From Actinomycetota bacterium (GTDB lineage Bacteria > Actinomycetota > Actinomycetes > S36-B12 > UBA5976), in NCBI GenBank assembly GCA_009918005.1, contig RGDC01000001.1, positions 21,899-85,898 of the forward strand: a DNA stretch of 64,000 bases, given 5' to 3'. Positions 32,932-50,124 of the stretch are shown piece by piece. Each line of letters starts with the position of its first letter. Positions within the stretch are counted from its first letter, which is position 1. The translations under genes and the position numbers were made by a program. Under the pieces are notes generated by a model, which saw only the letters and a program-made list of their open reading frames with translations, did not search any database and was not told the origin of the DNA.

Positions 32932-34242
32932 CTAGAAAGTCATCGGCTTAATAAAGTCAGCAAGAATGACGATTGCGGACATCGCGAGCAAAACTATGGA
33001 CATTGCGTATGCCACCGGCAGCATTTTCGCAGTATCGACTGGGCCTGGAAGTGGCTTGCGACGAATTCGAGCAATTTGCCTACGTGCACCTTCATAAAGT
33101 GCCCCAGCGATATGGCCGCCATCCAATGGCAGTACGGGAACCATGTTAAATACGAATAAAAACAGGTTTACCGATGCCAATAACGTAATGAGGTCACCAG
33201 CCTTATAGATGGCTGGAATTGCCTCACTGCTAGTTATCTGCCCGCTGATGCGCCCGATCCCAACCACGCTTACTGGACCTTCAGGATCTCTCGGGGCATC
33301 AGTAAATAACTCGCTAGCAAGGGCGAAAACTCTTGCCGGGAAATCAAGTAAAGCACCGACGCTTGTCGCAGTGATGGACACCATGAAGCCCGGAACCTCA
33401 GAAATTGGTGCCTGAACCAATTCGAAACTTGGCGATACTCCCAAGAAACCGCGGCTGGAGAATTCTCCTGTTGCTTCACCAGACTTGCTAAAAACTGGTG
33501 TCTCAATAGCGGCGACTTCGACAGATTTAGTTTTAGTTTCGCCAGTCTTAGTTAAGAATGTAACTTCAGCAACCTTCCCAGCTTTATCGCCAAGTGCAGC
33601 TCCGAGATCATCCCAAGTTGTGATTTCTTGCCCATTGACGGCCAATAATTTGTCCCCGGGAGCCAGGTTTATTTCAGCGGCTGGTGTGGTTACTCCCCCT
33701 TCACACTTTCCACTTGTAGATGCAATTCCATTTGGATTGGCGCTAGTCGGAACACAGGCCACAACTTCTCTGACTGTTGTTGTGACTTCCGGACGACCAA
33801 TTCCACTCAGTGAGATCGTGAACAAAATTGTCGCAATTACCAAGTTCATGAAAGGTCCACCAAACATGACAGTCAATTTCTTTGGAACGCTCAATCGATA
33901 AAACGTACGCGGTTCGTCTTCGGGTGCAATTTCCGAAAGTACTTCCTCTCGGGCGGACTCAATCATTAGGCCCATTCGACCTAGGTGCTCGCGATCTTGA
34001 ACTCCTTTTGGATTGGGTGGAAACATTCCGATCATGCGAATGTATCCACCAAGCGGAATTGCTTTGATTCCATATTCAGTTTCACCTTTTTTGCGAGACC
34101 AAATTGTTGGACCAAAGCCCACCATGTACTGCGGAACTTTGACCCCAAATTTCTTTGCCGGTGTCATGTGACCTAACTCGTGCAACGCAATCGATGCAAG
34201 TAAGCCAAATGCAAAAATCAATATTCCTAACAGGCTCAACAT
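32932..34242 (-). CDS. M50 site-2 protease (RseP/Rip1-like) with PDZ domain
   Basis: 'HELGHM' HExxH in TM1, a central PDZ-like region, and '[12 protein letters not shown]' (NxxPxxxLDG). dxr-rip1-ispG order. Confidence 0.85.
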
Positions 34243-34251
34243 GTGGTTTTC

Positions 34252-35494: not shown

Positions 35495-36958
35495 CTAAAG
35501 CGCGAGATCACTAAGGACCAAAATGCGCTCATGCGTGAGATCGCGCATGGCATGCAGTAATCCTTCTTTTCCTACGCCAGATGCTTTAACTCCACCGTAC
35601 GGCATTTGATCTGACCGGAATGTTGGAACGTCACCAATTATGACGCCGCCAACTTCAAGTTCGGAATGCGCCAAGAATGCAGTTTGCAAATTGTGAGTGA
35701 ATACACCTGCCTGCAAACCAAACGGTGAGTCATTAACAATGTCGAAGCCTTCTTGGGTAGAGGAGATCGAATTCACTAGCATTACTGGCCCAAATACTTC
35801 ATTGCAGGAAACCTTGGCGTCAACCGGAACGTTGGCCAGCACAGTTGGCTCATAGTAGGAACCGTTGCGCTTGCCGCCGGTTAGTACCTTTGCTCCCGCT
35901 GCTACTGCTTCGTTAACCCATTCCTCAACTCGGATGGCTGCTGCTTCATTGATCATTGGACCAACAACAGTTTTTTCATCACGTGGATCACCATTCGGAA
36001 GCGAAGACACTGCACTAACAATTCGGTTCGTCATTTCTTCAAAGATCGAATTGTGGATTAGCACTCGTTGAACGGAGATACATGATTGACCAGCTTGATA
36101 GTTTGCAAAGGTAGCAATGCGCGAAGCCGCCCACGTCATGTCCTTTTCGCTATTCCAGTCTTCAAGAACAACCGCTGCTGCATTCCCACCAAGTTCCAGC
36201 GTGATGTGCTTACTTGGAACTGCCTTTTGGATTTCAAAACCAACTTTGTCTGAACCTGTGAACGAAACCACTGGTAAGCGCACATCTGCAACCAAAGCTG
36301 GTGCTGCTTCGTTACCCACCGGAAGTACTGACCAGGATCCAGCTGGCAAGTCCGTCTCAGCGAGAATCTCACCAAGAACCAATGCACTCAACGGCGTACT
36401 TGGGGCTGGCTTAACGACGATTGGTGCTCCTACGGCAATTGCTGGCGCAACTTTATGTGCGACCAAATTCATCGGGAAGTTAAACGGCGAAATTCCCAGC
36501 ACTGGACCATGTGGGAATCGACGAATGATCGCCATTCGTCCGGCAGTTGCAACTTCGGTGTCAAGCCTTTGTAGTTCGCCCGAAAATCTGCGCACTTCTT
36601 CGGCAGCCCAACGGAAAACTAATCCAGCTCTGCCGGCCTCGGCGCGTGCCCACATCAGCGGCTTGCCGTTCTCGTCCAAAATCAACTGAGCAATCTCTTC
36701 TGCTCGCTCTGTTAACCGCTTCGATACATGCATCAGCGCGTCAGCCCGCTGTGCTGCGGTGGTACGACGAGCTGCATGGCGAGATTCCCAGGCGGCAGCA
36801 ACAGCTTCCTCAACCTGCGCAGGATTAGGTACGTAGTACTGCCCAACGATTTTTCCATCACCAGGGTGAATTACGTCCGCGATTACATCGCTAGTGGCAG
36901 GCTTTCCGGCGATCCAAAATGGGTAAATAGCGCTCATATCCTCATAGGTTACGCCCAT
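35495..36958 (-). CDS. NAD(P)-dependent aldehyde dehydrogenase (succinate-semialdehyde dehydrogenase-like)
   Basis: Catalytic Glu 'LELGGNAA' and Cys 'GQSCISVQR'. Divergent from gabT. The track start is a TTG at 37012. The ATG at 36958 (MGVTYEDMSAIYPFWIAGK) gives a typical ALDH N-terminus. Substrate specificity is inferred only from the gabT neighbour. Confidence 0.8.
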   Translation of the reverse strand: MGVTYEDMSAIYPFWIAGKPATSDVIADVIHPGDGKIVGQYYVPNPAQVEEAVAAAWESRHAARRTTAAQRADALMHVSKRLTERAEEIAQLILDENGKPLMWARAEAGRAGLVFRWAAEEVRRFSGELQRLDTEVATAGRMAIIRRFPHGPVLGISPFNFPMNLVAHKVAPAIAVGAPIVVKPAPSTPLSALVLGEILAETDLPAGSWSVLPVGNEAAPALVADVRLPVVSFTGSDKVGFEIQKAVPSKHITLELGGNAAAVVLEDWNSEKDMTWAASRIATFANYQAGQSCISVQRVLIHNSIFEEMTNRIVSAVSSLPNGDPRDEKTVVGPMINEAAAIRVEEWVNEAVAAGAKVLTGGKRNGSYYEPTVLANVPVDAKVSCNEVFGPVMLVNSISSTQEGFDIVNDSPFGLQAGVFTHNLQTAFLAHSELEVGGVIIGDVPTFRSDQMPYGGVKASGVGKEGLLHAMRDLTHERILVLSDLAL

Positions 36959-37048
36959 ATCCGTTCTGCCACTAACTGTGGGTCTGGTCAGATTTGGATT
37001 TCTAAGGGCCAACTTGTAGGAACGCCTATCGGGTCTAACATTGTTTCT

Positions 37049-38401
37049 ATGACTGCTACAAATATCTCAGCCCCAGTAAATGGCATCGCCCAAGAGCGAA
37101 ATCTAGTTACATCCCTACCAGGACCAAAATCCTTGGCTATGCAAGCTCGTCGCACTAGTGCGGTTAGCGGCGGCGTAGGTGTAGCTCTTCCTATCTATAT
37201 AGATCGTGCCGCTGGTGGCATCGTTGTAGATATCGATGGTAACTCACTGATTGACATGGGTTCCGGTATCGCGGTCACTGGCGTTGGTAATGCTGCTGAA
37301 GATGTAGTAACCCGCGTACAGGAGCAGGTAGCAAAGTTTACGCACACTTGCTTTACAGTCACACACTACGAAGGTTATGTAGAAGTTTGTGAAGCATTAA
37401 ATCGTTTAACACCTGGCGATCACGAAAAGCGTTCTGCACTTTTCAACTCAGGAGCCGAAGCAGTAGAAAACGCAGTCAAAGTTGCCCGCTCCTACACAAA
37501 GCGTCAAATGGTTGTGGTTTTTGAACATGGATACCACGGTCGAACTAACTTAACCATGAGCATGACAGCCAAAAATATTCCATACAAGCAAGGCTTTGGT
37601 CCGTTTGCCCCAGAAATTTATCGGATGCCAATGTCGAACCCATCTCATGATGGATTAACTGGCGTGGAAGCTGCTGCCCATGCAATTAGCAAAATGAATA
37701 AGGAACTTGGGGCTGGCAACATTGCGGCAATTGTGATTGAACCAATCCAAGGTGAAGGCGGTTTCGTGGTTCCTGCCACTGGCTTCCTTCCTGAACTTGT
37801 TAAGTTCTCAAAGGACAATGGCATCGTATTTGTTGCCGACGAAGTTCAGACTGGCTTCTGCCGTACCGGACAGTGGTTCGCTTCTGAACATGAAGGCATC
37901 GTGCCAGACATGATCATCACTGCTAAAGGTATTGCTGGTGGACTTCCGCTAGCCGCTATTACTGGTCGCGCCGAAATTATGGACTCAGTCGAAGCTGGTG
38001 GCTTAGGTGGAACTTATGCCGGCAATCCGATTGCTTGTGCGGCGGCTCTTGGTTCTATTGCCGTCATGGAACGTGAAGATTTAAATGCAAAGGCCCAGCG
38101 CATCGAAGAGATCATGAAGCCTAGATTGCAAAAAATTGCGGAAGACACAGGAGTGATCTGCGACGTCCGTGGTCGAGGCGCAATGATTGCGGTGGAGATT
38201 GTCAAGAAGGGTTCAATGGAACCAGATCCTGATATGACGAACAAGGTTGCCAAAGCCTGTCATGCAAATGGCGTTCTAGTCCTGACTGCTGGTACTTACG
38301 GAAACGTACTTCGCTTCCTACCACCAATGGTTATGCCAGAGCACTTGCTTGAAGATGCGCTCACCATTATTGAGCAGCAATTCAAAGAAGCTACCGCCTA
38401 G
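37049..38401 (+). CDS. gabT: 4-aminobutyrate--2-oxoglutarate aminotransferase (class III PLP aminotransferase)
   Basis: From the ATG at 37049, 'MTATNISAPVNGIAQERNLVTSLPGPKS...GVGVALPIYIDRAAGGIVVDIDGN' parallels GabT N-termini. Also 'ADEVQTGFCRTG' and the PLP-Lys region 'IITAKGIAGG'. The 36728 start in the track overlaps the ALDH gene and is rejected. Confidence 0.85.
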   Translation: MTATNISAPVNGIAQERNLVTSLPGPKSLAMQARRTSAVSGGVGVALPIYIDRAAGGIVVDIDGNSLIDMGSGIAVTGVGNAAEDVVTRVQEQVAKFTHTCFTVTHYEGYVEVCEALNRLTPGDHEKRSALFNSGAEAVENAVKVARSYTKRQMVVVFEHGYHGRTNLTMSMTAKNIPYKQGFGPFAPEIYRMPMSNPSHDGLTGVEAAAHAISKMNKELGAGNIAAIVIEPIQGEGGFVVPATGFLPELVKFSKDNGIVFVADEVQTGFCRTGQWFASEHEGIVPDMIITAKGIAGGLPLAAITGRAEIMDSVEAGGLGGTYAGNPIACAAALGSIAVMEREDLNAKAQRIEEIMKPRLQKIAEDTGVICDVRGRGAMIAVEIVKKGSMEPDPDMTNKVAKACHANGVLVLTAGTYGNVLRFLPPMVMPEHLLEDALTIIEQQFKEATA

Positions 38402-38428
38402 GCAACTTCGGCTTAGGTTAATTCGTAC

Positions 38429-38941
38429 ATGACTCAGCAAACTGAGCATGCCTCAGTAAAGCGAGTTCGCACTGCACTCGAGACTCATGGAGTCGAAACC
38501 GAGATCAGACACCTTGCTGATACGGCGAGGACTGCAATTGACGCCGCCAATGTTCTCGATGTAGAAGTTGGACAAATTGCCTCGTCGATCGTTTTCAAAA
38601 TCGACACTGAACATGGCGAACGGCCACTGTTGGTAGTTACGTCCGGCAGACATCGCGTTGATACTGAATTGGTCGCATCTGCTCTGGAAGTTCCTAAGCT
38701 AGGTCGCGCCGATGCTGACTTCGTTCGATTGTGGAGTGGATTTGCAATCGGTGGTGTCTCCCCTGTCGGATGGATACACGAAGGTAGAGTATTCCAACCA
38801 CAAACAATTGTTGACCTTGCGCTAAAGGACTACGAAGTTGTGTGGGGTGCTTGTGGGCATACCCATGTAGTTTGCCGCCTTGACTATGAATCGTTACTCA
38901 AGATCACTGGTGGAACCGCACTCGTCGTCGCAGCAGACTAA
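38429..38941 (+). CDS. YbaK/ProX/EbsC-type aminoacyl-tRNA editing (deacylase) domain protein
   Basis: 170 aa with 'GFAIGGVSPVGW' and the overall YbaK-like pattern. Confidence 0.7.
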   Translation: MTQQTEHASVKRVRTALETHGVETEIRHLADTARTAIDAANVLDVEVGQIASSIVFKIDTEHGERPLLVVTSGRHRVDTELVASALEVPKLGRADADFVRLWSGFAIGGVSPVGWIHEGRVFQPQTIVDLALKDYEVVWGACGHTHVVCRLDYESLLKITGGTALVVAAD

Positions 38942-38951
38942 AGTCTTAACT

Positions 38952-39662
38952 GTGTTTGTCCGCCTAGATATAACGAGAGTGCGAACTCGTCATGTTCTAA
39001 TTGCCTTGACGTTAATGGCGCGCCAAAGGCTTGCAATGCGCAAACTTCCCGGACTTACTTTCTACAAATTAATGGGTACCGGTTCGGGCAAGACCTTCAC
39101 AGTTCGAGACGCTGACATTCATCACTGGTGTGTTTTGTCAGTCTGGAAAACACATGAGGAATCACTGGAGTACTTAACAAGTAAGCCTGCTAGGCAGTGG
39201 GTAAAGATTGCTGCCGCGCAAGCACACATCGAACTAGAACCGCTATCCGCCAAAGGCACCTGGGCAAAGCAAGCACCATTTGGAAACCCGGTTCCTGAAA
39301 AATGGGATGGACTTACCGCTGCCCTAACCCGAGCTTCAATCAAACCTCGATGGTGGCGGGAATTCTGGCGCAGCGTGCCACCAGTTTCAACAGATTTGAA
39401 TTCAACTGCCGGATTAATTACCAGTTTGGGTATTGGTGAAGCGCCAATCGGGTTGCAAGGAACATTTAGTATCTGGGAATCAAATGAAAGCATTACCGCA
39501 TTTTCAAGTAAGCAAAAACCTCATGCGGCCGTGATAGCACGTACTCATGAAACCGGATGGTATTCCGAAGAACTGTTTGCCAGATTTAAAGTCACCAAAC
39601 TTTCTGGAAGCTTTGCTGGGCTCGATTTTTCTACCTTGGAAAAGCGAAGTTCAAATGACTGA
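38952..39662 (+). CDS. CrtA-like (spheroidene monooxygenase family) carotenoid oxygenase
   Basis: 'VFVRLDI...LPGLTFYKLMGTGSGKTFT..HHWCVLSVW' and the C-terminal 'HETGWYSEELFARFKV' match my recollection of CrtA-family proteins. First gene of the overlapping tailoring operon. Start is uncertain: GTG 38952 is chosen because it lies 10 nt after the ybaK stop, while in-frame TTG 38880, ATG 38886 and GTG 38910 would overlap ybaK. Confidence 0.5.
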   Translation: MFVRLDITRVRTRHVLIALTLMARQRLAMRKLPGLTFYKLMGTGSGKTFTVRDADIHHWCVLSVWKTHEESLEYLTSKPARQWVKIAAAQAHIELEPLSAKGTWAKQAPFGNPVPEKWDGLTAALTRASIKPRWWREFWRSVPPVSTDLNSTAGLITSLGIGEAPIGLQGTFSIWESNESITAFSSKQKPHAAVIARTHETGWYSEELFARFKVTKLSGSFAGLDFSTLEKRSSND

Positions 39663-40437
39663 AGTTGAACATTCTAAAAATCAGCTCCTACTAGTTTCGA
39701 TAGTTGCAGCCGGCATTACCGTACTGGCTCAAATTGCGTGGGCGCTCACTTCGGATGGCCTGCGCGATGCCACAACCATCATTGGGGTTTTAGCCTTTGC
39801 TACAGCTTCGGGTTTTCATGCCTACGCGGCCTTTGGTCGCGAATTTCTAGTCAAGTTCCTATTCATCGCGCTGCTACTGACGTTTGGCATCGAAGTGCTT
39901 GGAGTTACCACGGGCTTACCGTTTGGTACCTATGAATACGATCCAGAGCGCCTTGGGTTATCAGTGCTTGGAGTTCCGCTGTTGATTCCATTCGCGTGGT
40001 TCATGATGCTTTATCCTTCGTGGCTGATTTCGCGAGATCTGGTTAAGTCTAGATTTCTCGCGATACCTGCGTCTGCACTGCTGATGTCGACTTGGGATCT
40101 GTATCTGGATCCGCAAATGGTAAACGAAGGGTATTGGACTTGGTTTAACGATGGACATGCAACTAAAGACATCCCGTTAACTAATTTCTTTGGCTGGTTC
40201 GTTTCCACAGCCACAATTTTCATTCTACTTTCGCTTTTCTTGAAACCAACTCAATCGGAAGTTTCCAACAAAACTCCTTATGCGCTTGTGTATTGGGTTT
40301 GGTTAGGAAGCTTCTTGGTCAACATAGTTCCGGTTTCACCATTCTTTAATCAGCCAACGGTCGCGATTACTGGATTTGTTGGTATGGGCATCGTGCTAAT
40401 CCCCTGGTCTTGGATGCTATGGCAACGACGTTATTAA
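39655..40437 (+). CDS. cruF: Carotenoid biosynthesis membrane protein, CruF-like (carotenoid 1',2'-hydratase family, PF04240-type)
   Basis: 'GLPFGTYEYD', 'STWDLYLDPQMVNEGYWTW' and 'IPLTNFFGWF' within a polytopic protein. The ATG at 39655 overlaps the upstream TGA (39660..39662). The track start at 39547 would overlap the upstream gene by 116 nt. Confidence 0.6.
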   Translation: MTEVEHSKNQLLLVSIVAAGITVLAQIAWALTSDGLRDATTIIGVLAFATASGFHAYAAFGREFLVKFLFIALLLTFGIEVLGVTTGLPFGTYEYDPERLGLSVLGVPLLIPFAWFMMLYPSWLISRDLVKSRFLAIPASALLMSTWDLYLDPQMVNEGYWTWFNDGHATKDIPLTNFFGWFVSTATIFILLSLFLKPTQSEVSNKTPYALVYWVWLGSFLVNIVPVSPFFNQPTVAITGFVGMGIVLIPWSWMLWQRRY

Positions 40438-41513
40438 CAATTTCAGTAGCGCTTTCGTTGCTACTTTCGCTCAACTTATTTTTCAATTATTTTTTCTTGA
40501 TTAGACCTGAACCGAGTCAGGTAACTGAGAGAGTCGCGATTCTGATTCCAGCACGAAATGAAGAGAATTCAATATCTTTTGCGGTCCAAAGTGCCTTGAA
40601 CCAAGAGTTGCTAACTGATTTTGAAGTTATTGTTTTAGACGATGCCTCAACAGATGCCACATCTGAAAAGTTGCTGGCCTTTTACGACTCGAGATTGAAA
40701 GTCATAACTGGTGCTCCGGAATTACCACAAGGGTGGCTTGGTAAAGCTTGGGCTTGTCATCGACTTTCGGAAAGTGTTGATGTTGATTTCTTGGTATTTA
40801 TTGACAGTGACGTGACTCTGGCGCCTAACGCAGTAGCTAGTGCGATTACTGCGCTCAAGAAATATCAGTTACATCTTGTCAGTCCATATCCTCGACAAAT
40901 TGCTCCCACGTTGTTGGCAAGAATTGTCCAGCCGTTATTGCAATGGTCTTGGCTTGCCACCGTCCCACTTCGAGCAACTCGGTCATCACGAAGAGAAAGT
41001 CTGGCTGTCGCTAATGGCCAATTTTTAGTTTGTCGAAAAGATTCTTACTTAATCAGTGGCGGACACCAAGCCATTAAGGGTGAAATACTTGACGACATCG
41101 AATTGCTGAGGTCTTTCTATCGAAGCGGATTCTCTGGATGCGTAATTGATGGATCCCAGATTGCAACCTGCAAAATGTATGAAACCAATCAAGCCTTGAT
41201 CTCCGGTTACTCAAAGAGTCTCTGGAATGCTTTTGGTGGCGCGATTGGCTCTTTGGGAGTAACCGGATTTTTCTTGTTTGTCTATGTTTACCCACTTACT
41301 GGATTTTTCACAGGGCACGAATTGTTAGCCGCTTTAAGTCTGCTTCTTGGAACTATCGGCCGACTGATTTCTGCAAGTGCTACGAAAAGTAAGTTGATTC
41401 CTGATGCTTTGCTGCATCCCTTGTCTGTTTTAGCATTTACGTTTCTCAATGTTGTTTCATGGTGGCGACACCTAGCGGGAACGAACACTTGGAAATCAAG
41501 GGACCTAAAGTAG
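40419..41513 (+). CDS. Family-2 glycosyltransferase (carotenoid glycosyltransferase candidate, CruC/CrtQ-like)
   Basis: GT2 motifs 'VAILIPARNEENSI' and 'EVIVLDDASTDAT', 'FIDSDV', with C-terminal TM segments. The ATG at 40419 (or TTG at 40410) overlaps the cruF-like 3' end. Confidence 0.7.
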   Translation: MATTLLTISVALSLLLSLNLFFNYFFLIRPEPSQVTERVAILIPARNEENSISFAVQSALNQELLTDFEVIVLDDASTDATSEKLLAFYDSRLKVITGAPELPQGWLGKAWACHRLSESVDVDFLVFIDSDVTLAPNAVASAITALKKYQLHLVSPYPRQIAPTLLARIVQPLLQWSWLATVPLRATRSSRRESLAVANGQFLVCRKDSYLISGGHQAIKGEILDDIELLRSFYRSGFSGCVIDGSQIATCKMYETNQALISGYSKSLWNAFGGAIGSLGVTGFFLFVYVYPLTGFFTGHELLAALSLLLGTIGRLISASATKSKLIPDALLHPLSVLAFTFLNVVSWWRHLAGTNTWKSRDLK

Positions 41514-41517
41514 GGCT

Positions 41518-43014
41518 GTGGCAAAAATAGTTGTTATCGGTGCCGGCATGGGTGGAATGGCTTGCGCCGCCAGGCTTGCGAGCAAGGGCCATGAAGTTCA
41601 AGTTTTAGAACATAACAAAACGTGGGGCGGCAAGCTTGGTTATGCCGAGCACGGTGGACATAAATTTGATACCGGACCAAGTCTGCTAACGTTGCCCGCG
41701 GTTTATCGTGATTTGTTTCTCAAGACCGGCGCAGCACTTGAAGACTCGATCGAAATCGTTGACTTGGATACCGCGTTTCGATATCAGTTTGCTGATGGCA
41801 CAGTGTTGAAAATGCCTGGAACTGGAATTGGAAAATGTGCCCAAGCAATCGGCGACACATTGGGTGGTAATAGCGCTGATCAATGGCGACAATTCATGCG
41901 TCGGGCCGCTGACATGTGGGCGGTGACGAGGAAGCCATTTTTGGAGTCTGAGCTTCACGGTCTAAAGAGTTTGCTTGCATTGACTTGGCGAGTTAATGAC
42001 ATTCGGACAATCGCACCAACCAAAACCCTTCGTGACTTGGCAAACCACTATCTAACAGACCCTCGGCTGATTACCCTGGTGGACCGTTATGCGACCTACA
42101 CCGGATCTGACCCGCGACAAGCGCCAGCAGCTCTAGCGACTGTCCCCTACGTGGAACAAATGTTTGGTGCATATCATGTGGCCGGTGGACTACGAGAACT
42201 TGGTCGAGCACTTTATGAACGGGCAACTTCTATCGGTGTAACTTTTGAGTTTGATTGCACGGTTACCAACATTGCCACCGAACCAAGAGTTTCTGGGGTA
42301 ACGCTGGACGATGGGCGCTTCATTTCTGCCGACATTGTTGTGGCGAATTCTGATGCTTCTAATGTTTACCAATATCTGCTTAGTCCAGCTGCGCAACTGA
42401 CCGCAAAGTCAGCTAGGAAATCACTTGCCAAAGCAACTCCATCACTTTCAGGATTCGTTATTTTGCGAGCCATGTCGGGCAAAACCCCCGACCTTGAGCA
42501 CCACAACGTATTTTTTCCAGAAAATTACGATGACGAGTTCAACTCAATTTTTGGAATCAATAAAAAGATTTCTCCGGTTGCCGAACCTACGATTTACATC
42601 TGCTCGCCTAACGATCCCAAGATGACGCCAAGAGGTGACGAGTCTTGGTTTATGTTGATTAATGCACCTCGTCATGATCCAAATGATGGCGTTGATTGGT
42701 CGAACCTAGAGCTTAAGAATTCCTATACTGAGCAGATTTTGTCAGTGCTTTCAAAACGAGGATTCGAAAGCAGAGATCGAGTTACTTGGCAGGACACCAT
42801 TACGCCAGCTGATCTTGAGAAAAATACTTTGGCTCCAGGCGGCTCAATTTATGGCACATCAAGTAATGGAATGCGGTCAGCATTCTTAAGGCCAGAAAAT
42901 GTAACAAAGATTCCGAATCTATATCTCGTTGGAGGATCTTCCCACCCCGGTGGTGGTTTACCGCTAGTGGGCATGTCGGCTGAGATAGTTGCAAGCCGAA
43001 TTGGTAGGGCTTGA
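41518..43014 (+). CDS. CrtI-family FAD-dependent carotenoid desaturase/ketolase (CrtD/CrtO-like paralogue)
   Basis: 'KIVVIGAGMGGMACAARLASKGHEVQVLEHNKTWGGK' dinucleotide fold and the C-terminal 'LVGGSSHPGGGLPLVGMSAEIVASRI' CrtI-family signature. This is the second CrtI-family gene in the locus. GTG start 4 nt after the GT2 stop. Confidence 0.75.
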   Translation: MAKIVVIGAGMGGMACAARLASKGHEVQVLEHNKTWGGKLGYAEHGGHKFDTGPSLLTLPAVYRDLFLKTGAALEDSIEIVDLDTAFRYQFADGTVLKMPGTGIGKCAQAIGDTLGGNSADQWRQFMRRAADMWAVTRKPFLESELHGLKSLLALTWRVNDIRTIAPTKTLRDLANHYLTDPRLITLVDRYATYTGSDPRQAPAALATVPYVEQMFGAYHVAGGLRELGRALYERATSIGVTFEFDCTVTNIATEPRVSGVTLDDGRFISADIVVANSDASNVYQYLLSPAAQLTAKSARKSLAKATPSLSGFVILRAMSGKTPDLEHHNVFFPENYDDEFNSIFGINKKISPVAEPTIYICSPNDPKMTPRGDESWFMLINAPRHDPNDGVDWSNLELKNSYTEQILSVLSKRGFESRDRVTWQDTITPADLEKNTLAPGGSIYGTSSNGMRSAFLRPENVTKIPNLYLVGGSSHPGGGLPLVGMSAEIVASRIGRA

Positions 43015-43019
43015 AACTT

Positions 43020-43661
43020 TTACGCCTTTAAATTTTTCCGAAACGCTCGCATCAGCATTGCAAAACTTATCGCGCCTAACGCCAACCACGCTTGAGATGC
43101 AACTATTGCCAGCTGAGAGGTTTGTTCTGGCAACACGCCACAGGCAAATAAGAACATTGTTCCGATGGCAATTCGAGTTGGTTTTTCTGCTGGCGTGATT
43201 ACACCAACTTCGCGAAACCCTAAGCCACTAGCTTTAGCCCTCATGTATTCATGAATCAGAGCAATAGTGAAAGCAAGTACCGCGATTTCAATTGGTGCTC
43301 CTAAAACAATTAACAGTAAACCAATTCCGGTATCGATTAATCGATCAACAATGCCATCTAAAAACGCGCCCCAAGAACTTGTTTTTGAAGTTCTAACCGC
43401 CACAATTCCATCGAAACTATCCACCAATCCAACAGCAAACACAATGATGCTTGCTAAGAAATAGTTTCGATTTGTAGACTCTGCAAAATAAATCGCTACC
43501 AACATAAGTAACGGCCCAAAGGCGGTAATGACATTGGGGTTAAGCCGAGTTAATGGCGTTGAAAGTGTAAATGACATTCGTAGCCACACTAAAACTAGGC
43601 CCGTTGGACGCTTTGTGCCATGAATCTGCGCCCAGCTAACGAGGTATTCGTCAAACGTCAT
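43020..43661 (-). CDS. CDP-alcohol phosphatidyltransferase family protein (substrate unknown)
   Basis: 'DSFDGIVAVRTSKTSSWGAFLDGIVDRLID' keeps the Dx2DG...Gx3Dx3D spacing but reads A-V-R where the canonical motif is A-R. About 6 TM segments. Divergent from crtE. Confidence 0.7.
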   Translation of the reverse strand: MTFDEYLVSWAQIHGTKRPTGLVLVWLRMSFTLSTPLTRLNPNVITAFGPLLMLVAIYFAESTNRNYFLASIIVFAVGLVDSFDGIVAVRTSKTSSWGAFLDGIVDRLIDTGIGLLLIVLGAPIEIAVLAFTIALIHEYMRAKASGLGFREVGVITPAEKPTRIAIGTMFLFACGVLPEQTSQLAIVASQAWLALGAISFAMLMRAFRKNLKA

Positions 43662-43733
43662 GTCCCTATTGTTCTACCCTTGTCCTACCCGACCAAAAGT
43701 GCAATAAATCCGCCCAGCCAATAGCCTGAACTA

Positions 43734-44801
43734 GTGGAAATTCATCCGTTAGATGCAAACGGGCTTCGAGAGCGCATCCAACTCAGTCTTAATAACTTTG
43801 TTTCTGATCACAAAGCCATGATGGTGAATGTTTCCCCTGATACCTTGCCGCTGGTTGAGTCACTTGAAGGTTTGCTTGTAGGTGGCAAAAGATTGCGCCC
43901 AGCTTTTGCTTACTGGGGATTTCTAGCAGCTGGTGGTCAGGATTCTGATGAGATTATTCGAGCGTGTGCAAGCTTAGAATTTCTACAAGCATGCGCCTTA
44001 ATTCATGACGACGTTATGGATGCAAGTGATACCCGCAGGGGAAACCCTTCGATCCACAAGCAATTTGAAACTAGGCACATGTCTAACCAATGGAGTGGGT
44101 CAGCAAAGCTTTTTGGCGAAGGAGCTGCGATTCTAGTTGGTGACTTAGCTTTGTCTTGGGCTGATGAGATGCTTCTGACAAGTGGGTTAACAACCGACGA
44201 ACTGATTCGAGCCAAAGCAATTTACGACATAATGCGTACGGAATTGATGAGTGGGCAATATCTTGATCTTTTAGAACAAGTGCGAGGTGACATCACCCTG
44301 GCGCGCGCCGAGACCGTTATTCGCTTCAAGAGTGCCAAGTACACGATAGAACGACCACTTCACATGGGCGCAGCAATTGCTGGGGCGTCGCCAGAATTAA
44401 CCCAGGTGTTGTCCCAATACGGCTTGGCGTTAGGTGAAGCATTCCAACTCCGCGATGACCTACTTGGAGTTTTTGGAGATAGTTCAGTCACTGGAAAACC
44501 TGCAGGTGATGATTTGCGTGAAGGTAAGCAGACGATGCTCATTGCATTTGCTAATGTAAACGCTGCAACTACCGAAAAGAAGCACCTTTTCGAAAAATTA
44601 GGGAACTTGTCGCTAACAAGTGATGAGATTTCTGAGCTTCAAAGGATCTTGATAAGTTGCGGGGCGCAAGAATTCGTAGAGAATCGAATCACGAGCTATT
44701 TAGAAGCGGCTTTAACATCACTGAATGCCCTTTCAGGAGAAACTGATGCTAAAGCGGCCTTGATTGAACTTGCAATTCTCGCTACCAACCGATCGGCATA
44801 A
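43734..44801 (+). CDS. crtE: Polyprenyl (geranylgeranyl) diphosphate synthase
   Basis: First Asp-rich motif 'LIHDDVMDASDTRRG' and second 'FQLRDDLLGVFGD'. GTG start. Lies immediately upstream of crtI. Positional equivalent of mycobacterial idsA2. Confidence 0.85.
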   Translation: MEIHPLDANGLRERIQLSLNNFVSDHKAMMVNVSPDTLPLVESLEGLLVGGKRLRPAFAYWGFLAAGGQDSDEIIRACASLEFLQACALIHDDVMDASDTRRGNPSIHKQFETRHMSNQWSGSAKLFGEGAAILVGDLALSWADEMLLTSGLTTDELIRAKAIYDIMRTELMSGQYLDLLEQVRGDITLARAETVIRFKSAKYTIERPLHMGAAIAGASPELTQVLSQYGLALGEAFQLRDDLLGVFGDSSVTGKPAGDDLREGKQTMLIAFANVNAATTEKKHLFEKLGNLSLTSDEISELQRILISCGAQEFVENRITSYLEAALTSLNALSGETDAKAALIELAILATNRSA

Positions 44802-44803
44802 CT

Positions 44804-46336
44804 ATGAGTAACTTTTCAAGATGGATTCCAGGTTCACCAAGGACCGTTTCTGGAAAGACTAATGACGTAGTTATTGTCGGTGCAGGCTTAGCCGGGTTAT
44901 CAGCTGCCATGCGATTGGCAGGCGCTGGGCGAAATGTCACGGTCTTAGAACGCGAAAGTATTCCAGGGGGACGAGCTGGGCGAATCAGCGATCGTGGTTT
45001 TGAATTTGATACTGGGCCAACGGTTTTGACGATGCCAGACTTGATTGCTGATGCTTTTGATTGCCTTGGTGAGAACATGAATGACTGGCTGACTTTAGAG
45101 CCAGTTGCTCCCCTTTATCGGGCGTTTTATCAAGATGGCAGCGTGTTAGACGTACATTCTGACACCACTGGAATGGCTGCCGAAATTGAAAAAGTTGTTG
45201 GCGCTAGCGAAGCGGATGGGTACTTAAAGTACGTTGATTTTGTTACCGATCTCTATAAATATGAAATGAAGAACTTTATCGATCGCAACATTGACTCCCC
45301 TCTCGACTTATTGTCGATGGACTTAGTCCGTTTGATTAAACTCGGTGGCTTTCGAAAGTTGGCACCAAAAGTTGGTCAATATCTCAAAGATGATCGAACT
45401 CAAAGAGTATTTTCATTTCAATCTATGTATGCCGGCCTGTCACCGTATGACGCATTGGCAATTTACGCCGTAATTGCGTACATGGATTCGGTCGCTGGGG
45501 TATTTGCGCCAAAAGGTGGCATGCATGCTTTACCGGTTGCCATGGCTAAGGCGGCTGAAAAGCATGGCGTCACTTTTAAGTACGACACCGAAGTGACTAA
45601 AGTTCGAATGAATGGCAATCGAGCCGTAGGAGTCGAAACCAGCACTGGTGAGTTTTACGCCGCTGACGTAGTGGTCCTTAATCCTGATCTGCCTGTTGCC
45701 TATCGTGACTTGCTTGGGAAAGAGCCATGGAGTGTAAAACGACTTACCTACTCACCATCTTGCTACCTGTTACTCGCTGGATCTACTGCTAAGTATGACC
45801 ACATCGCACATCACAATATTCATTTTGGTCACAGCTGGGCCGGCGTATTCGAGGAGCTCATCAATAAAAAACAATTGATGTCAGACCCAAGTGTGCTCGT
45901 TACAAACCCTACATATAGTGATCCTGGTTTAGCACCCGATGGAAAACAGGTTTACTACGTTCTGTTTCCGACCCCAAATCTTGATGCAGATATCGACTGG
46001 AAGAAACAAGCTCCGGCTTACCGAGATCACGCGATTGAAACTTTGCAGGCTCGTGGCTATACCGGATTTGGTGATGCAATCGAAGTTGAACACATCACAA
46101 CTCCGCAGGACTGGTCGAATCGTGGCATGGAGCGGGGAGCACCGTTTGCTGCGGCACATTCATTCTTACAAACTGGACCATTCCGTCCCGGAAACATGTT
46201 TGGCGAGAACGTAGTTTTCACCGGATCAGGTACTCAACCTGGCGTCGGTGTTCCAATGGTCCTAGTTTCTGGCAGATTGGCTGCGGAACGTATTACCGGT
46301 CCAGACAAGTCTTATGTATCGCGCGCTCGACGTTAA
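44804..46336 (+). CDS. crtI: Phytoene desaturase (lycopene-forming, CrtI)
   Basis: 'VVIVGAGLAGLSAAMRLAGAGRNVTVLE' and 'FTGSGTQPGVGVPMVLVSGRLAAERI'. 2-nt gap after crtE. Confidence 0.85.
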   Translation: MSNFSRWIPGSPRTVSGKTNDVVIVGAGLAGLSAAMRLAGAGRNVTVLERESIPGGRAGRISDRGFEFDTGPTVLTMPDLIADAFDCLGENMNDWLTLEPVAPLYRAFYQDGSVLDVHSDTTGMAAEIEKVVGASEADGYLKYVDFVTDLYKYEMKNFIDRNIDSPLDLLSMDLVRLIKLGGFRKLAPKVGQYLKDDRTQRVFSFQSMYAGLSPYDALAIYAVIAYMDSVAGVFAPKGGMHALPVAMAKAAEKHGVTFKYDTEVTKVRMNGNRAVGVETSTGEFYAADVVVLNPDLPVAYRDLLGKEPWSVKRLTYSPSCYLLLAGSTAKYDHIAHHNIHFGHSWAGVFEELINKKQLMSDPSVLVTNPTYSDPGLAPDGKQVYYVLFPTPNLDADIDWKKQAPAYRDHAIETLQARGYTGFGDAIEVEHITTPQDWSNRGMERGAPFAAAHSFLQTGPFRPGNMFGENVVFTGSGTQPGVGVPMVLVSGRLAAERITGPDKSYVSRARR

Positions 46337-46354
46337 GGGGCGTATTCTGAAGTA

Positions 46355-47890: not shown

Positions 47891-47898
47891 CTTATTTG

Positions 47899-48342: not shown

Positions 48343-48456
48343 TTAATTCCTAACCAACACTTCACACAACTTGTGCTGTAGCAACCCTACGCGCCACGAG
48401 TGAATTTCTCGAATTCTGGACAAACCTAAGGGTTGGTGATTCACTTCCCCAACTAA

Positions 48457-49392
48457 TTGCATAAAGTTACCAATGTGTCCAACCGAGATCTTGATGCAGC
48501 TGAAATCTTTGACCCAAGGCTGCGTGCATCCTATGAATTATGTAGGCAACTAAATGCAGAACATGGCAAAACCTATTACCTAGCAACGCTTCTGCTCCCG
48601 CCTGCAAAACGTCCCTATGTGCATGCACTCTACGGCTTCGCAAGATACGCAGATGAAATTGTCGATGATTTAGCTTCGACATTAACTGAGTCTGAAAAAG
48701 CAGAACAACTCAGGATTTGGGGTGATGACTTTCTAGCTAAATTTGACTCTGGCCAAACGAATGATCCGGTATGTATCGCTGTCTTGGACACTGTCAGACG
48801 CTGGAACATTCCCCGTGAACACTTCGAGGCATTTCTGCATTCAATGACAATGGATCTAACTGTTACTGAATATGCGACCTACGAAGATCTCTATGAATAT
48901 GTTTACGGATCTGCAGCGGTCATTGGTCTTCAAATGGTTCCAATTTTGGAACCGACCAGCCAAGATGCATATAAGTACGCCACGGAACTTGGAGTCGCAT
49001 TTCAACTTGCAAACTTCATAAGAGATGTTGGCGAGGATCTCGAGCGCGGCAGGGTATATCTTCCACTTAATGAACTCGAACAATTTGGAGTTAGAAAAGC
49101 AGATCTTGAAGCCCGAATTGCTACGCCAAAAGTGAAGGCGGCTTTGAAGTTTCAGGTTGCCAGAGTTAGGAAACTTGAAGAATCTTCTCGAACTGGAATA
49201 TCGATGCTTGGCAAACCATCCCAACCTTGCATCGAAACTGCGCGAATTCTTTATTGCGGGATTGTCGATGCAGTGGAAGACATTGACTATGAAGTATTTA
49301 CTAAACGAGCCACAGTTTCACTTGCTCGCAGGTTAAAGGTTGCTGTCCCGGCATACTTGCAAGCCAGAAAACTTTGGAAACTAACTACTTAG
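48457..49392 (+). CDS. crtB: 15-cis-phytoene synthase
   Basis: 'SYELCRQLNAEHGKTYYLATLLLP', 'ALYGFARYADEIVDD' and 'FQLANFIRDVGEDLERGRVYLP' are squalene/phytoene synthase motifs. The start is either TTG 48457 or GTG 48475. Confidence 0.9.
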   Translation: MHKVTNVSNRDLDAAEIFDPRLRASYELCRQLNAEHGKTYYLATLLLPPAKRPYVHALYGFARYADEIVDDLASTLTESEKAEQLRIWGDDFLAKFDSGQTNDPVCIAVLDTVRRWNIPREHFEAFLHSMTMDLTVTEYATYEDLYEYVYGSAAVIGLQMVPILEPTSQDAYKYATELGVAFQLANFIRDVGEDLERGRVYLPLNELEQFGVRKADLEARIATPKVKAALKFQVARVRKLEESSRTGISMLGKPSQPCIETARILYCGIVDAVEDIDYEVFTKRATVSLARRLKVAVPAYLQARKLWKLTT

Positions 49393-49783
49393 ATCCAAGA
49401 AATCTTTTGACACTTTGCCGTGGTGGGCCCGACATTGGCTCACGTTGCACGCCGATCCTGCCAAGCCAAACCCAAATGGTCAAAGTCAGTACCACTAGAC
49501 AGAAGCCAAAAAGCAAGTCTTCAATTGGGGCAAATACCAAGCGCCCGTCTCCGATAAATGCTGGCGATGAATCTGACGGAGTACTAGAACCAATAATTGC
49601 GTTTCCGTTATATTCAACAATTCCAAATCCGGTCAAGATTCCATTTGTAACTAGTTGAAAGAAGATAACGATCGAGTAAGAAGTCCAAAACACCCTTCTA
49701 AGTAAAATTTTGGTTTTAAATACATATAAATCCAAAGCAACTACGGAAAGCACTCCGAAAACTGTCAACTGGGTATAAGTCAA
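49385..49783 (-). CDS. crtYd: Lycopene cyclase domain protein, second subunit of a heterodimeric cyclase
   Basis: 132-aa three-TM protein with 'FAPIEDLLFGF' (PxE[E/D] lycopene-cyclase-domain motif). 4-nt overlap with the upstream subunit. Confidence 0.7.
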   Translation of the reverse strand: MTYTQLTVFGVLSVVALDLYVFKTKILLRRVFWTSYSIVIFFQLVTNGILTGFGIVEYNGNAIIGSSTPSDSSPAFIGDGRLVFAPIEDLLFGFCLVVLTLTIWVWLGRIGVQREPMSGPPRQSVKRFLGSK

Positions 49784-50124
49784 TTTTTTCCCTCATCCCC
49801 AGCTTGCCAATTTCGAGCACTTCGGACCGCCTCAAAGGACAAAATCGAGCAGATCGGAATCACAATAAAAAACAATATTTCATCTAATGGGATGTTTGCG
49901 AAAGTTGTTATACCGGTGACGTAACGCGAATCAAACTTCCAGTGCCCTTGTGCAATCGCATATGCGTCCCATATTGAAAACGCCAAAGCTACTGGTAAGA
50001 CAGTAAGAAAAAGACGGATAGTTCGACGGTACACCTTAGTTCGCAAAAAATATTCAAGCCAGGCAGTTCCAATAAGGCAGGCCAGAAGAACGCCTACATA
50101 CGCGAACTTAGACATAGAACTCAC
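49780..50124 (-). CDS. crtYc: Lycopene cyclase domain protein, first subunit of a heterodimeric cyclase
   Basis: 114-aa three-TM protein with 'NIPLDEILFFIVIP'. Paired with the adjacent subunit as in actinobacterial crtYc/crtYd. Confidence 0.7.
   Translation of the reverse strand: MSSMSKFAYVGVLLACLIGTAWLEYFLRTKVYRRTIRLFLTVLPVALAFSIWDAYAIAQGHWKFDSRYVTGITTFANIPLDEILFFIVIPICSILSFEAVRSARNWQAGDEGKN

What the first reader, a model, noticed from the sequence alone, without database searches (positions are those of the whole stretch)
38952..43014. Translationally coupled carotenoid-tailoring operon (CrtA-like, CruF-like, GT2, second CrtI-family enzyme) predicting a glycosylated, oxygenated monocyclic xanthophyll that could serve as a rhodopsin antenna
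Seen in the sequence:
- Four same-strand ORFs are joined by overlaps or tiny gaps, so they form one translational unit directly after gabT-ybaK.
- The ATG at 39655 overlaps the TGA at 39660..39662.
- The ATG at 40419 lies 19 nt inside the preceding ORF.
- The GTG at 41518 is 4 nt after the TAG at 41511..41513.
- ORF1 has N- and C-terminal hallmarks I associate with spheroidene monooxygenase CrtA ('LPGLTFYKLMGTGSGKTFT', 'GWYSEELFARFKV').
- ORF2 has the CruF/PF04240-type pattern ('GLPFGTYEY', 'WDLYLDPQMV..GYWTW', 'PLTNFFGWF').
- ORF3 is a GT2.
- ORF4 is a second CrtI-family flavoenzyme.

Established knowledge:
- CruF enzymes are carotenoid 1',2'-hydratases.
- CrtD-type CrtI paralogues are 3',4'-desaturases.
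- CruC/CrtX-type glycosyltransferases decorate the resulting hydroxyl.
- CrtA-type enzymes add C-2 oxo or hydroxy groups.
- This enzyme set builds myxol-, deinoxanthin- and salinixanthin-type pigments.
- Salinixanthin is the light-harvesting antenna of xanthorhodopsin.

Inference: together with crtE/I/B and crtYcYd nearby, the organism should make such a glycoside. In a compact mid-GC actinobacterial genome, the kind that often carries actinorhodopsin, this is a candidate native antenna-pigment pathway. To my knowledge that pathway has not been genetically defined for Actinobacteria. No rhodopsin or blh gene lies in this window.
Basis: partly seen in the sequence, partly recalled or inferred. 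Interest (0 to 1): 0.6.

Follow-up and report, generated by a model that had tools for sequence, protein, structure and literature searches.

The report
Known freshwater-actinobacterial carotenoid-tailoring operon
This is the four-gene carotenoid-modifying operon (crtA-like, cruF, glycosyltransferase, crtD-like) of the abundant freshwater Nanopelagicales (acI) Actinobacteria; the operon and the rhodopsin-antenna idea were both published in 2018, so the gene calls are right but the finding is not new.

Summary
Four same-strand ORFs (38952-39662, 39655-40437, 40419-41513, 41518-43014) are joined by an 8-nt overlap, a 19-nt overlap and a 4-nt gap.

- ORF1 is a CrtA-family monooxygenase.
- ORF2 is CruF (PF04240).
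- ORF3 is a membrane GT2, closest to CruG and HpnB.
- ORF4 is a CrtI paralogue that scores best on CrtD models, not CrtO.

crtE, crtI, crtB and crtYcYd lie next door. The whole layout recurs in about 20 freshwater 'Ca. Nanopelagicales' MAG loci.

The tight spacing says little by itself. The window is 94.5% coding, with a median same-strand gap of 16 nt.

The novelty claim fails. Dwulit-Smith et al. 2018 (bioRxiv 10.1101/367102; AEM) described this crtA-cruF-cruG-crtD operon upstream of crtE-crtI-crtB in all acI clades. They showed co-transcription in lake metatranscriptomes, predicted a gamma-carotene-derived glycoside ('actinoxanthin') and proposed it as an actinorhodopsin antenna or photoprotectant.

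The likely product is a deoxymyxol (plectaniaxanthin)-type glycoside. The antenna role is untested and somewhat disfavoured: the window has no ring ketolase or hydroxylase, and known antennas need a 4-keto or 3-hydroxy ring. Interest is low.

The parts
38952..39662 (+). ORF1, CrtA-family (CrtA-OH-like) carotenoid psi-end C-2 oxygenase, 236 aa, soluble
   Evidence: NCBIfam NF045923 spheroidene monooxygenase: E 3.3e-49, 167 bits (equivalog cutoff 300), profile positions 15-225 of 226. No Pfam hit. No PDB sequence hit. AF2 model: mean pLDDT 59, N-terminal half about 80. Foldseek places that half with ABM (dimeric alpha+beta barrel) monooxygenases, TM about 0.7-0.78 normalised to the target. GTG start is conserved in 19 loci. 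No hydrophobic segments.
39655..40437 (+). ORF2, CruF-family carotenoid 1',2'-hydratase, 260 aa, polytopic membrane protein
   Evidence: PF04240: E 1.6e-37, 129.9 bits (cutoff 25). TIGR03460 CruF 107 bits (cutoff 154.7). NF045693 gamma-carotene 1'-hydroxylase CruF 70 bits. About 6-7 hydrophobic segments. Overlaps ORF1 by 8 nt.
40419..41513 (+). ORF3, membrane-anchored family-2 glycosyltransferase (CruG/HpnB-like), 364 aa
   Evidence: PF00535: 68.6 bits (cutoff 23.3). Best NCBIfam hits are CruG NF045692 at 98.5 bits (cutoff 600) and HpnB at 97.1 bits. DSD/DVD motifs at residues 121-131; N-terminal and C-terminal hydrophobic segments. Overlaps cruF by 19 nt and ends 4 nt before crtD. Conserved position in about 17 loci.
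41518..43014 (+). ORF4, CrtI-family flavoenzyme, CrtD-like (1-hydroxycarotenoid 3,4-desaturase), 498 aa
   Evidence: Bit scores: CrtD NF045637 355, crtI_fam TIGR02734 328.5 (cutoff 238), CrtD NF042421 298, CrtO NF045689 48. 27% identical to the window's CrtI, E 2e-58. GAGMGG FAD motif and C-terminal CrtI-type signature NLYLVGGSSHPGGGLPLVGMS.
43734..44801 (+). Polyprenyl (GGPP) synthase, crtE/idsA; supplies the backbone
   Evidence: PF00348, 175.8 bits. Followed 2 nt later by crtI.
44804..46336 (+). Phytoene desaturase CrtI
   Evidence: TIGR02734, 503 bits. 96-97% identical in the closest loci, 79-91% in the more distant ones.
48457..49392 (+). Phytoene synthase CrtB
   Evidence: NF045686 CrtB 204 bits; squalene/phytoene synthase family.
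49385..50124 (-). Two heterodimeric lycopene cyclase subunits (crtYc/crtYd), convergent with crtB
   Evidence: TIGR03462 lycopene cyclase domain, 36.9 and 65.6 bits. PF18916 on the identical gene in L026.
38429..38941 (+). ProX/YbaK-like free-standing aminoacyl-tRNA editing domain, 10 nt upstream of crtA. Probably co-transcribed; pathway role doubtful.
   Evidence: PF04073, 65 bits. Best PDB hit is TTHA1699 putative trans-editing enzyme, E 1.7e-14. Adjacent to crtA in 19 loci but absent in L020, where gabT directly precedes crtA.

Best explanation
The region is the carotenoid-tailoring operon of freshwater Nanopelagicales (acI-type) Actinobacteria, already described as acI-crtA, -cruF, -cruG, -crtD.

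Proposed mechanism. The neighbouring crtE-crtI and crtB genes make lycopene. CrtYcYd closes one ring to give gamma-carotene. The four enzymes then tailor the open (psi) end:
1. The membrane protein CruF adds water across C-1',2' to give a 1'-OH.
2. The CrtD-like flavoenzyme inserts the 3',4' double bond.
3. The CrtA-like ABM-fold oxygenase oxygenates C-2', most likely as a hydroxyl as in flavobacterial CrtA-OH.
4. The membrane GT2 attaches a sugar to the 1'- or 2'-hydroxyl.

The expected product is a deoxymyxol (plectaniaxanthin)-type glycoside with an unmodified beta-ring. In this lineage there is no evidence for acylation.

Its most likely role is as a membrane-embedded photoprotective or membrane-stabilising pigment. 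A rhodopsin-antenna role is possible but unproven.

Shown here: the ORFs, their family homology, conserved synteny and junctions, and purifying selection.
Shown by others: co-transcription in acI, and the enzyme activities of homologues.
Inferred: substrate, reaction order, sugar position, the function of the GT2, and the physiological role.
For: - Family assignments: CrtA model E 3e-49; PF04240 130 bits; GT2 PF00535 plus CruG/HpnB; CrtD models 355 and 298 bits against CrtO 48.
- ABM fold for the N-terminal half of ORF1.
- FAD motif, CrtI signature, DxD motifs and transmembrane segments.
- Backbone genes crtE, crtI, crtB and crtYcYd lie within 7 kb.
- Identical gene order and junctions in about 20 'Ca. 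Nanopelagicales'/Actinomycetota freshwater MAG loci, and partly in the cultured Sporichthyales member Longivirga aurantiaca.
- dN much lower than dS.
- Literature. 10.1101/367102 describes the same operon, its position upstream of crtE-crtI-crtB, crtYcYd convergent with crtB, metatranscriptome reads spanning the intergenic regions, and the predicted gamma-carotene-derived glycoside. PMC11855829 shows that CruF, CrtD and CrtA-OH convert gamma-carotene via 1'-hydroxy-gamma-carotene and 1'-hydroxytorulene to deoxymyxol in E. coli.
Against: - No enzyme of this operon, from this or any acI genome, has been assayed in the literature I could read.
- All four proteins fall below NCBIfam equivalog cutoffs (167/300, 107/154.7, 98/600, 355/580), so exact activities may differ.
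- The GT2 is as close to hopanoid HpnB as to CruG.
- The C-terminal half of the CrtA-like model has low confidence.
- The 2018 description includes an acyltransferase upstream of crtA 'most often'. Here the upstream gene is a ProX/YbaK-like protein, so the match to the published operon is not exact.
- I could not see that paper's figures to compare clade by clade.
- Ring-modifying genes could lie elsewhere in the genome.
Confidence: 0.78

Rival explanations
1. Functional rival. The glycoside's main role is as a light-harvesting antenna bound to actinorhodopsin, transferring energy to retinal as salinixanthin does in xanthorhodopsin.
For: - acI actinorhodopsins carry the helix-5 glycine that opens the carotenoid site, and the authors raise this possibility (10.1101/367102).
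- All cultured Nanopelagicales encode one actinorhodopsin (PMC12817590).
- The actinorhodopsin of Ca. Aquiluna IMCC13023, a different actinobacterial lineage, could be reconstituted with native carotenoids (PMC8113403).
Against: - No ring ketolase or hydroxylase is in the cluster or the window, and ORF4 is not CrtO-like (48 bits).
- Known antennas need a 4-keto or 3-hydroxy ring. Unsubstituted beta-carotene does not bind Kin4B8 (PMC12308411).
- The glycine is necessary but not sufficient.
- No rhodopsin is linked to the operon here.
- The 2018 preprint reports that acI-C genomes keep the operon although they lack blh. The 2025 culture study likewise finds Nanopelagicus missing only blh.
Confidence: 0.15
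2. Product rival. The enzymes act mainly on lycopene at both ends, giving an acyclic oscillol-type (1,1',2,2'-tetrahydroxy-3,4,3',4'-tetradehydro) diglycoside rather than a monocyclic pigment.
For: - Homologous CruF hydrates lycopene to mono- and dihydroxylycopene when the cyclase is absent (PMC11855829).
- The cyclase genes form a separate, oppositely oriented unit, so flux partitioning is open.
Against: - With cyclase and CruF together, 1'-hydroxy-gamma-carotene was the main product in E. coli.
- The lineage needs the cyclase for beta-carotene and retinal.
- The published prediction starts from gamma-carotene.
Confidence: 0.15
3. Enzyme rival. ORF1 acts as a C-2 ketolase like purple-bacterial CrtA, and/or ORF4 is a ring 4-ketolase, giving a keto-carotenoid closer to salinixanthin.
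For: - The best NCBIfam model for ORF1 is built on Rhodobacter-type spheroidene monooxygenase.
- The 2018 authors noted that acI-CrtD might be a CrtO.
Against: - ORF1 reaches only 167 of 300 bits on the ketolase equivalog model.
- CrtA homologues next to cruF and crtD in flavobacteria are 2'-hydroxylases.
- ORF4 scores 355 and 298 bits on the CrtD models, against 48 bits (cutoff 1000) on CrtO.
Confidence: 0.1
4. Context rival. The GT2 is not a carotenoid enzyme. It serves envelope glycolipid synthesis together with the interleaved PIP-synthase-like and MptB-like genes, and the pigment is an unglycosylated diol.
For: - A CDP-alcohol phosphatidyltransferase (43020-43661, minus strand) and an MptA/B-family GT-C (46355-47890) are embedded in the cluster and conserved.
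- The GT2 scores as well on HpnB as on CruG.
Against: - The GT2 overlaps cruF by 16-19 nt and ends 4 nt before crtD in every locus, including Longivirga, where the other spacings have loosened.
- CruG-type carotenoid glycosyltransferases are GT2 enzymes. This rests on my own knowledge; the acI assignment as CruG is.
Confidence: 0.05

Closest known systems
acI (Nanopelagicales) complex-carotenoid operon acI-crtA, -cruF, -cruG, -crtD ('actinoxanthin' pathway), Dwulit-Smith et al. 2018 (bioRxiv 10.1101/367102; AEM 84:e01678-18)
   Same: - Same four gene families in the same order.
- Same position upstream of crtE-crtI-crtB.
- crtYcYd convergent with crtB.
- Same host order (nearest genomes are 'Ca. 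Nanopelagicales' MAGs).
- Same predicted gamma-carotene-derived glycoside and the same antenna-or-photoprotection hypothesis.
   Different: - The paper's operon 'most often' begins with an acyltransferase. Here the upstream gene is a ProX/YbaK-like editing domain and no acyltransferase is adjacent.
- Here an MptB-like gene and a barstar-like gene separate crtI from crtB, and a single gene separates crtD from crtE. The IMG gene numbers quoted for SAG AAA278-O22 imply a contiguous crtE-I-B and two genes between crtD and crtE.
Flavobacterial myxol cluster (Flavobacterium P99-3; Nonlabens spongiae): crtY, cruF, crtD, crtA-OH, crtZ
   Same: CruF, CrtD and a CrtA homologue act together on the psi-end of gamma-carotene. 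This is shown experimentally to give deoxymyxol (PMC11855829).
   Different: - The flavobacterial cluster has crtZ (3-hydroxylation, giving myxol) and no glycosyltransferase.
- The window has a GT2 and no crtZ.
- The hosts are from different phyla, and sequence relatedness is only at family level.
Cyanobacterial myxol glycoside pathway (CruF + CruG, Synechococcus PCC 7002)
   Same: A CruF hydratase paired with a GT2 glycosyltransferase acting on the 2'-OH. ORF3's best NCBIfam hit is CruG.
   Different: - ORF3 reaches only 98 of 600 bits on the CruG equivalog model.
- Cyanobacteria add a ring 3-OH, and they lack a CrtA homologue in this role (the latter is from my own knowledge).
Salinixanthin pathway of Salinibacter ruber, the xanthorhodopsin antenna
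   Same: A monocyclic, 3',4'-didehydro, 1',2'-oxygenated glycoside scaffold, in a host with a xanthorhodopsin-family pump.
   Different: Salinixanthin carries a 4-keto ring and an acylated glucoside. No CrtO/CrtW ketolase and no cluster-linked acyltransferase is present here.

Membership tests
CrtA / CrtA-OH carotenoid psi-end C-2 oxygenase family (NCBIfam NF045923) | Full-length sequence homology to the family profile | tested here: met
   E 3.3e-49; residues 13-223 align to profile positions 15-225 of 226.
CrtA / CrtA-OH carotenoid psi-end C-2 oxygenase family (NCBIfam NF045923) | Score above the equivalog cutoff, meaning the same function as Rhodobacter spheroidene monooxygenase (2-ketolase) | tested here: not met
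   167.3 bits against a cutoff of 300. It is a homologue, not an equivalog. The hydroxylase/ketolase choice is undecided.
CrtA / CrtA-OH carotenoid psi-end C-2 oxygenase family (NCBIfam NF045923) | Oxygenation of C-2 of a 1-hydroxy psi-end group | not testable with these tools
   Needs heterologous expression. The activity of flavobacterial homologues is shown in PMC11855829.
CruF carotenoid 1,2-hydratase (Pfam PF04240) | Match above the Pfam gathering score, in a polytopic membrane protein | tested here: met
   129.9 bits against 25. About 6-7 hydrophobic segments.
CruF carotenoid 1,2-hydratase (Pfam PF04240) | Equivalog-level match to a characterised CruF (TIGR03460, NF045693, NF041333) | tested here: not met
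   107 of 154.7, 70 of 400 and 56 of 300 bits.
CruG-type carotenoid 2'-O-glycosyltransferase (GT2) | GT2 catalytic domain with acidic DxD-type motifs | tested here: met
   PF00535, 68.6 bits against 23.3. DVD and DSD at residues 121-131.
CruG-type carotenoid 2'-O-glycosyltransferase (GT2) | Equivalog-level match to CruG | tested here: not met
   98.5 bits against a cutoff of 600. The score equals that for hopanoid HpnB, 97.1 bits. The assignment rests on gene context.
CrtD 1-hydroxycarotenoid 3,4-desaturase (CrtI family) | Membership of the CrtI family: FAD fold plus C-terminal signature | tested here: met
   TIGR02734, 328.5 bits against 238.1. GAGMGG motif and NLYLVGGSSHPGGGLPLVGMS signature.
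CrtD 1-hydroxycarotenoid 3,4-desaturase (CrtI family) | Closer to CrtD than to CrtI or CrtO | tested here: met
   ORF4 scores: CrtD 355 and 298, crtI_fam 328, CrtO 48. The window's true CrtI scores: crtI_fam 503, CrtD 259. The two paralogues are 27% identical. No tree with labelled references could be built. The equivalog cutoff of 580 is not reached.
acI/Nanopelagicales complex-carotenoid operon (Dwulit-Smith 2018) | Gene content and order crtA-cruF-GT2(cruG)-crtD, upstream of crtE-crtI-crtB, with crtYcYd convergent with crtB | tested here: met
   compared with the text of 10.1101/367102.
acI/Nanopelagicales complex-carotenoid operon (Dwulit-Smith 2018) | Host lineage is freshwater acI/Nanopelagicales | tested here: met
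   The nearest genome loci (59-90% CrtA identity) are nearly all freshwater 'Ca. Nanopelagicales' or Actinomycetota MAGs. GC of 48% and coding density of 94.5% fit the order. The clade (acI-A, B, C or other) is not resolved.
acI/Nanopelagicales complex-carotenoid operon (Dwulit-Smith 2018) | Acyltransferase gene at the head of the operon ('most often') | tested here: not met
   The upstream gene is a ProX/YbaK-like editing domain. The only acyltransferase nearby is PlsC-type, at 54569-55297 on the minus strand, 11.5 kb away.
Salinixanthin-type antenna pathway | Ring 4-ketolase (CrtO/CrtW) and glycoside acyltransferase (CruD) | tested here: not met
   None found among the window's 57 genes, nearly all searched against Pfam and the rest against NCBIfam. 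The rest of the genome is not visible.

The most novel reading that the evidence does not exclude
The operon's product, a glycoside with an unsubstituted beta-ring, nevertheless binds Nanopelagicales actinorhodopsin and transfers energy to retinal. That would define a third mode of antenna recognition, needing neither a 4-keto nor a 3-hydroxy ring, in the most abundant freshwater bacterioplankton.
Probability: 0.1. Interest if true: 0.7.

Novelty: already known. Interest (0 to 1): 0.2.

Why it matters
Nanopelagicales can make up a very large share of lake bacterioplankton, and all cultured members carry an actinorhodopsin. The structure and role of their tailored carotenoid therefore bear on freshwater light-energy budgets.

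That question has been open and explicitly posed since 2018. This window adds another genome with the same operon, in a layout lacking the proposed acyltransferase. It does not add a new system.

Two points here may be useful:
- The enzyme set predicts no ring substituent. By current binding rules this argues against an antenna role and for photoprotection.
- Longivirga aurantiaca, a cultured relative, carries the same four genes. Axenic Nanopelagicales strains also now exist. The pigment can therefore be tested directly.

Tried and rejected
- Promoter and terminator consensus scans over 36400-50300 were uninformative: 4 promoter-like sites against 17.8 expected, and 16 terminator-like sites against 15.3.
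- The look-up of encoding contigs found no record for the 100%-identical CrtA-like protein P0001. Using CrtI, it found only a 41-kb NCBI MAG contig (GCA_009918685.1) and a 3.6-kb Logan contig, with the same layout and no extra context.
- A PDB sequence search with ORF1 found nothing, even at E of 10.
- The AF2 model of ORF1 from a shallow alignment (17 sequences, at least 77% identical) has mean pLDDT 59. Only the N-terminal half is usable, so the C-terminal domain fold stays unassigned.
- dN/dS ratios are only rough, because dS is saturated in every comparison.
- ORFs filling the gaps of the Longivirga aurantiaca cluster are DUF2199, mycothiol S-transferase and SIMPL. There are no additional carotenoid genes there.
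- The published AEM version (PMC6275354) and the preprint's supplements are not held. I could not see Fig. 2 or identify the authors' 'acyltransferase' gene, so I could not decide whether it corresponds to the ybaK-like gene.
- I considered YbaK/ProX as a pathway enzyme and rejected it as unlikely. It resembles a Thermus trans-editing factor and is missing in L020, where gabT abuts crtA.
- I could not build a labelled CrtI-superfamily tree because no reference sequences were available. I used comparative scores on curated NCBIfam models instead.
- I could not resolve which Nanopelagicales clade the window belongs to.

Full report
**1. The observation.**
The six-frame ORF list and the raw sequence confirm the four same-strand ORFs and the stated junctions.
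- ORF1 runs from GTG 38952 to TGA 39660-39662.
- ORF2 starts at ATG 39655 inside the string ATGACTGA, an 8-nt overlap, and ends at TAA 40435-40437.
- ORF3 starts at ATG 40419, a 19-nt overlap (TTG 40410 is an alternative start), and ends at TAG 41511-41513.
- ORF4 starts at GTG 41518, after a 4-nt gap, and ends at 43014.

A class-III aminotransferase (gabT-like) and a YbaK-type editing-domain protein lie directly upstream.

**2. Is it more than chance?**
The spacing by itself is not. The window is 94.5% coding. Its 39 same-strand gene pairs have a median gap of 16 nt, and 17 of them are at most 10 nt apart, whatever their function. This is typical of the streamlined Nanopelagicales (PMC12817590).

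What is non-random is the content and its conservation. Four consecutive genes of carotenoid families recur in the same order, with the same start codons and junction geometry, in about 20 related loci:
- crtA has a GTG start 10 nt after ybaK in 19 loci.
- cruF and GT2 overlap by 16-19 nt.
- GT2 and crtD are separated by 4 nt.

dN is far below the saturated dS: dN is 0.07, 0.14, 0.18 and 0.09 for the four genes against L004.

**3. What the genes are.**
- **ORF1** has no Pfam family. It matches the NCBIfam spheroidene-monooxygenase (CrtA) model end to end (E 3.3e-49, 167 bits) but below the equivalog cutoff of 300. It has no sequence relative in the PDB. An AlphaFold model is confident only in its N-terminal half. 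That half superposes on ABM / dimeric alpha+beta-barrel monooxygenases such as 2omo, 4hl9, SnoaB and MhuD. This agrees with the JGI label 'heme-degrading monooxygenase HmoA' on close homologues.
- **ORF2** is a clear PF04240/CruF member (130 bits against 25) with about 6-7 hydrophobic segments.
- **ORF3** is a membrane-anchored GT2. Its best curated hits are CruG (98 bits) and hopanoid HpnB (97 bits), both far below cutoff.
- **ORF4** passes the CrtI-family cutoff and scores highest on the CrtD models (355 and 298 bits). It scores only 48 bits on CrtO.
- **The true CrtI** at 44804-46336 shows the opposite profile: crtI_fam 503 bits, CrtD 259 bits. The two paralogues are 27% identical.

So ORF1 and ORF2 do hit CrtA and CruF profiles, and ORF4 does not group with non-carotenoid oxidases.

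**4. Surroundings.**
Downstream of ORF4 lie, in order:
- a PIP-synthase-like CDP-alcohol phosphatidyltransferase on the minus strand;
- crtE;
- crtI, 2 nt after crtE;
- an MptA/B-family GT-C, 18 nt after crtI;
- a barstar-like gene on the minus strand;
- crtB;
- the two lycopene-cyclase subunits, convergent with crtB.

All 57 genes in the window were screened. All but three were searched against Pfam; the barstar-like ORF, 57226-58404 and 58358-59512 were searched against NCBIfam. No rhodopsin, blh, crtZ, crtW, crtO or cluster-linked acyltransferase is present.

**5. Where it comes from.**
A scan of one genome per species with ORF1 returned 25 loci. Nearly all are freshwater MAGs titled 'Candidatus Nanopelagicales bacterium' or Actinomycetota, with 59-90% CrtA identity. 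The scan also returned the cultured Sporichthyales species Longivirga aurantiaca at 51% identity. Thousands of near-identical proteins occur in freshwater metagenomes. GC of about 48% fits the order.

**6. Comparison with what is known.**
Dwulit-Smith et al. 2018 (bioRxiv 10.1101/367102, published in AEM) describe the following:
- its position upstream of crtE-crtI-crtB, with crtYcYd often convergent with crtB;
- Lake Mendota metatranscriptome reads spanning the intergenic regions;
- a predicted product: a gamma-carotene-derived, desaturated, dihydroxylated, glycosylated and possibly acylated carotenoid ('actinoxanthin');
- two proposed roles: an antenna on actinorhodopsin (which has the helix-5 glycine) or photoprotection;
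- the possibility that acI-CrtD is a ketolase.

It remains true that I found no biochemical validation. Searches for actinoxanthin, cruG/cruF with Actinobacteria, and Planktophila with carotenoid turned up none.

Differences from the published description:
- No acyltransferase lies upstream. A ProX/YbaK-like editing domain sits there instead; its best PDB hit is Thermus TTHA1699. It is absent in L020.
- MptB-like and barstar-like genes separate crtI from crtB.

**7. Mechanism.**
In Nonlabens spongiae, CruF, CrtD and CrtA-OH were shown in E. coli to convert gamma-carotene stepwise to 1'-hydroxy-gamma-carotene, 1'-hydroxytorulene and deoxymyxol (PMC11855829). By homology and context, the window's enzymes should do the same, and the GT2 should glycosylate the 1'- or 2'-hydroxyl. 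The result would be a deoxymyxol (plectaniaxanthin)-type glycoside.

Alternatives:
- acyclic oscillol-type products, if lycopene is used at both ends;
- a 2'-keto product, if ORF1 acts like purple-bacterial CrtA;
- a 4-keto ring from ORF4, which its weak CrtO score makes unlikely.

**8. The antenna idea.**
Known antenna carotenoids carry a 4-keto ring (salinixanthin, echinenone) or a 3-hydroxy ring (zeaxanthin, lutein). Beta-carotene does not bind the xanthorhodopsin Kin4B8 (PMC12308411). The enzyme set here leaves the beta-ring unsubstituted, and the operon is kept in lineages that lack blh.

Actinorhodopsin from a different actinobacterial lineage does associate with native carotenoids (PMC8113403). 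The idea is therefore not excluded, but on present rules it is the less likely role. I put it at about 0.1-0.15.

**9. Verdict.**
- The gene-level interpretation is supported.
- The salinixanthin-like and antenna framing is speculative and partly contradicted.
- The novelty claim is not supported.

This is an ordinary, already-described operon of a well-studied lineage. Interest is low.

Noticed in passing
window 43020-43661 (-) and 46355-47890 (+): A PIP-synthase-like CDP-alcohol phosphatidyltransferase sits between crtD and crtE. An MptA/MptB-family GT-C mannosyltransferase starts 18 nt after crtI; it matches TIGR03459, whose short name is still 'crt_membr'. Both are conserved at these positions in about 15 related loci. 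Carotenoid genes are thus interleaved with phosphatidylinositol/lipomannan-type envelope genes.
   Followed up: partly
window 38429-38941 (+): A free-standing ProX/YbaK-like aminoacyl-tRNA editing domain ends 10 nt before crtA in 19 loci and stays near crtA even in Longivirga. Its best PDB hit is Thermus TTHA1699 (E 1.7e-14). It is absent in L020. The ProRS at 28984-30753 already has its own editing domain. It may or may not be the gene that the 2018 paper calls 'acyltransferase'.
   Followed up: partly
window 47899-48342 (-): A barstar-like (PF01337) 147-aa ORF lies between the MptB-like gene and crtB. No barnase-type ribonuclease is present anywhere in the window. The ORF is conserved (34-73% identity) in related loci.
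   Followed up: no
window 57226-58404 (+): A 392-aa polytopic membrane protein has no Pfam or NCBIfam hit. It lies next to a GT4 glycosyltransferase (58358-59512, minus strand), with which its 3' end overlaps by 47 nt. It may be an undescribed GT-C-like enzyme.
   Followed up: no
window 31715-35454 (-): The MEP-pathway genes ispG (31715-32893) and dxr (34252-35454), flanking rseP, lie 3.5-7 kb upstream of the carotenoid genes on the opposite strand. Isoprenoid precursor and carotenoid genes are therefore loosely clustered.
   Followed up: no
window 49385-49392: crtB (+) and the adjacent lycopene-cyclase subunit gene (-) overlap convergently by 8 nt at their 3' ends. crtD and the CDP-OH transferase gene are convergent with only 5 nt between their stop codons. 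This leaves no room for intergenic terminators.
   Followed up: no
L021 10001-14724 (Longivirga aurantiaca CGMCC 4.7317): A cultured Sporichthyales species, whose epithet means orange, carries crtA-like, cruF, GT2 and crtD in the same order (42-58% identity). Its intergenic gaps are wider and contain no extra carotenoid genes. It is a tractable organism for identifying the pigment.
   Followed up: partly
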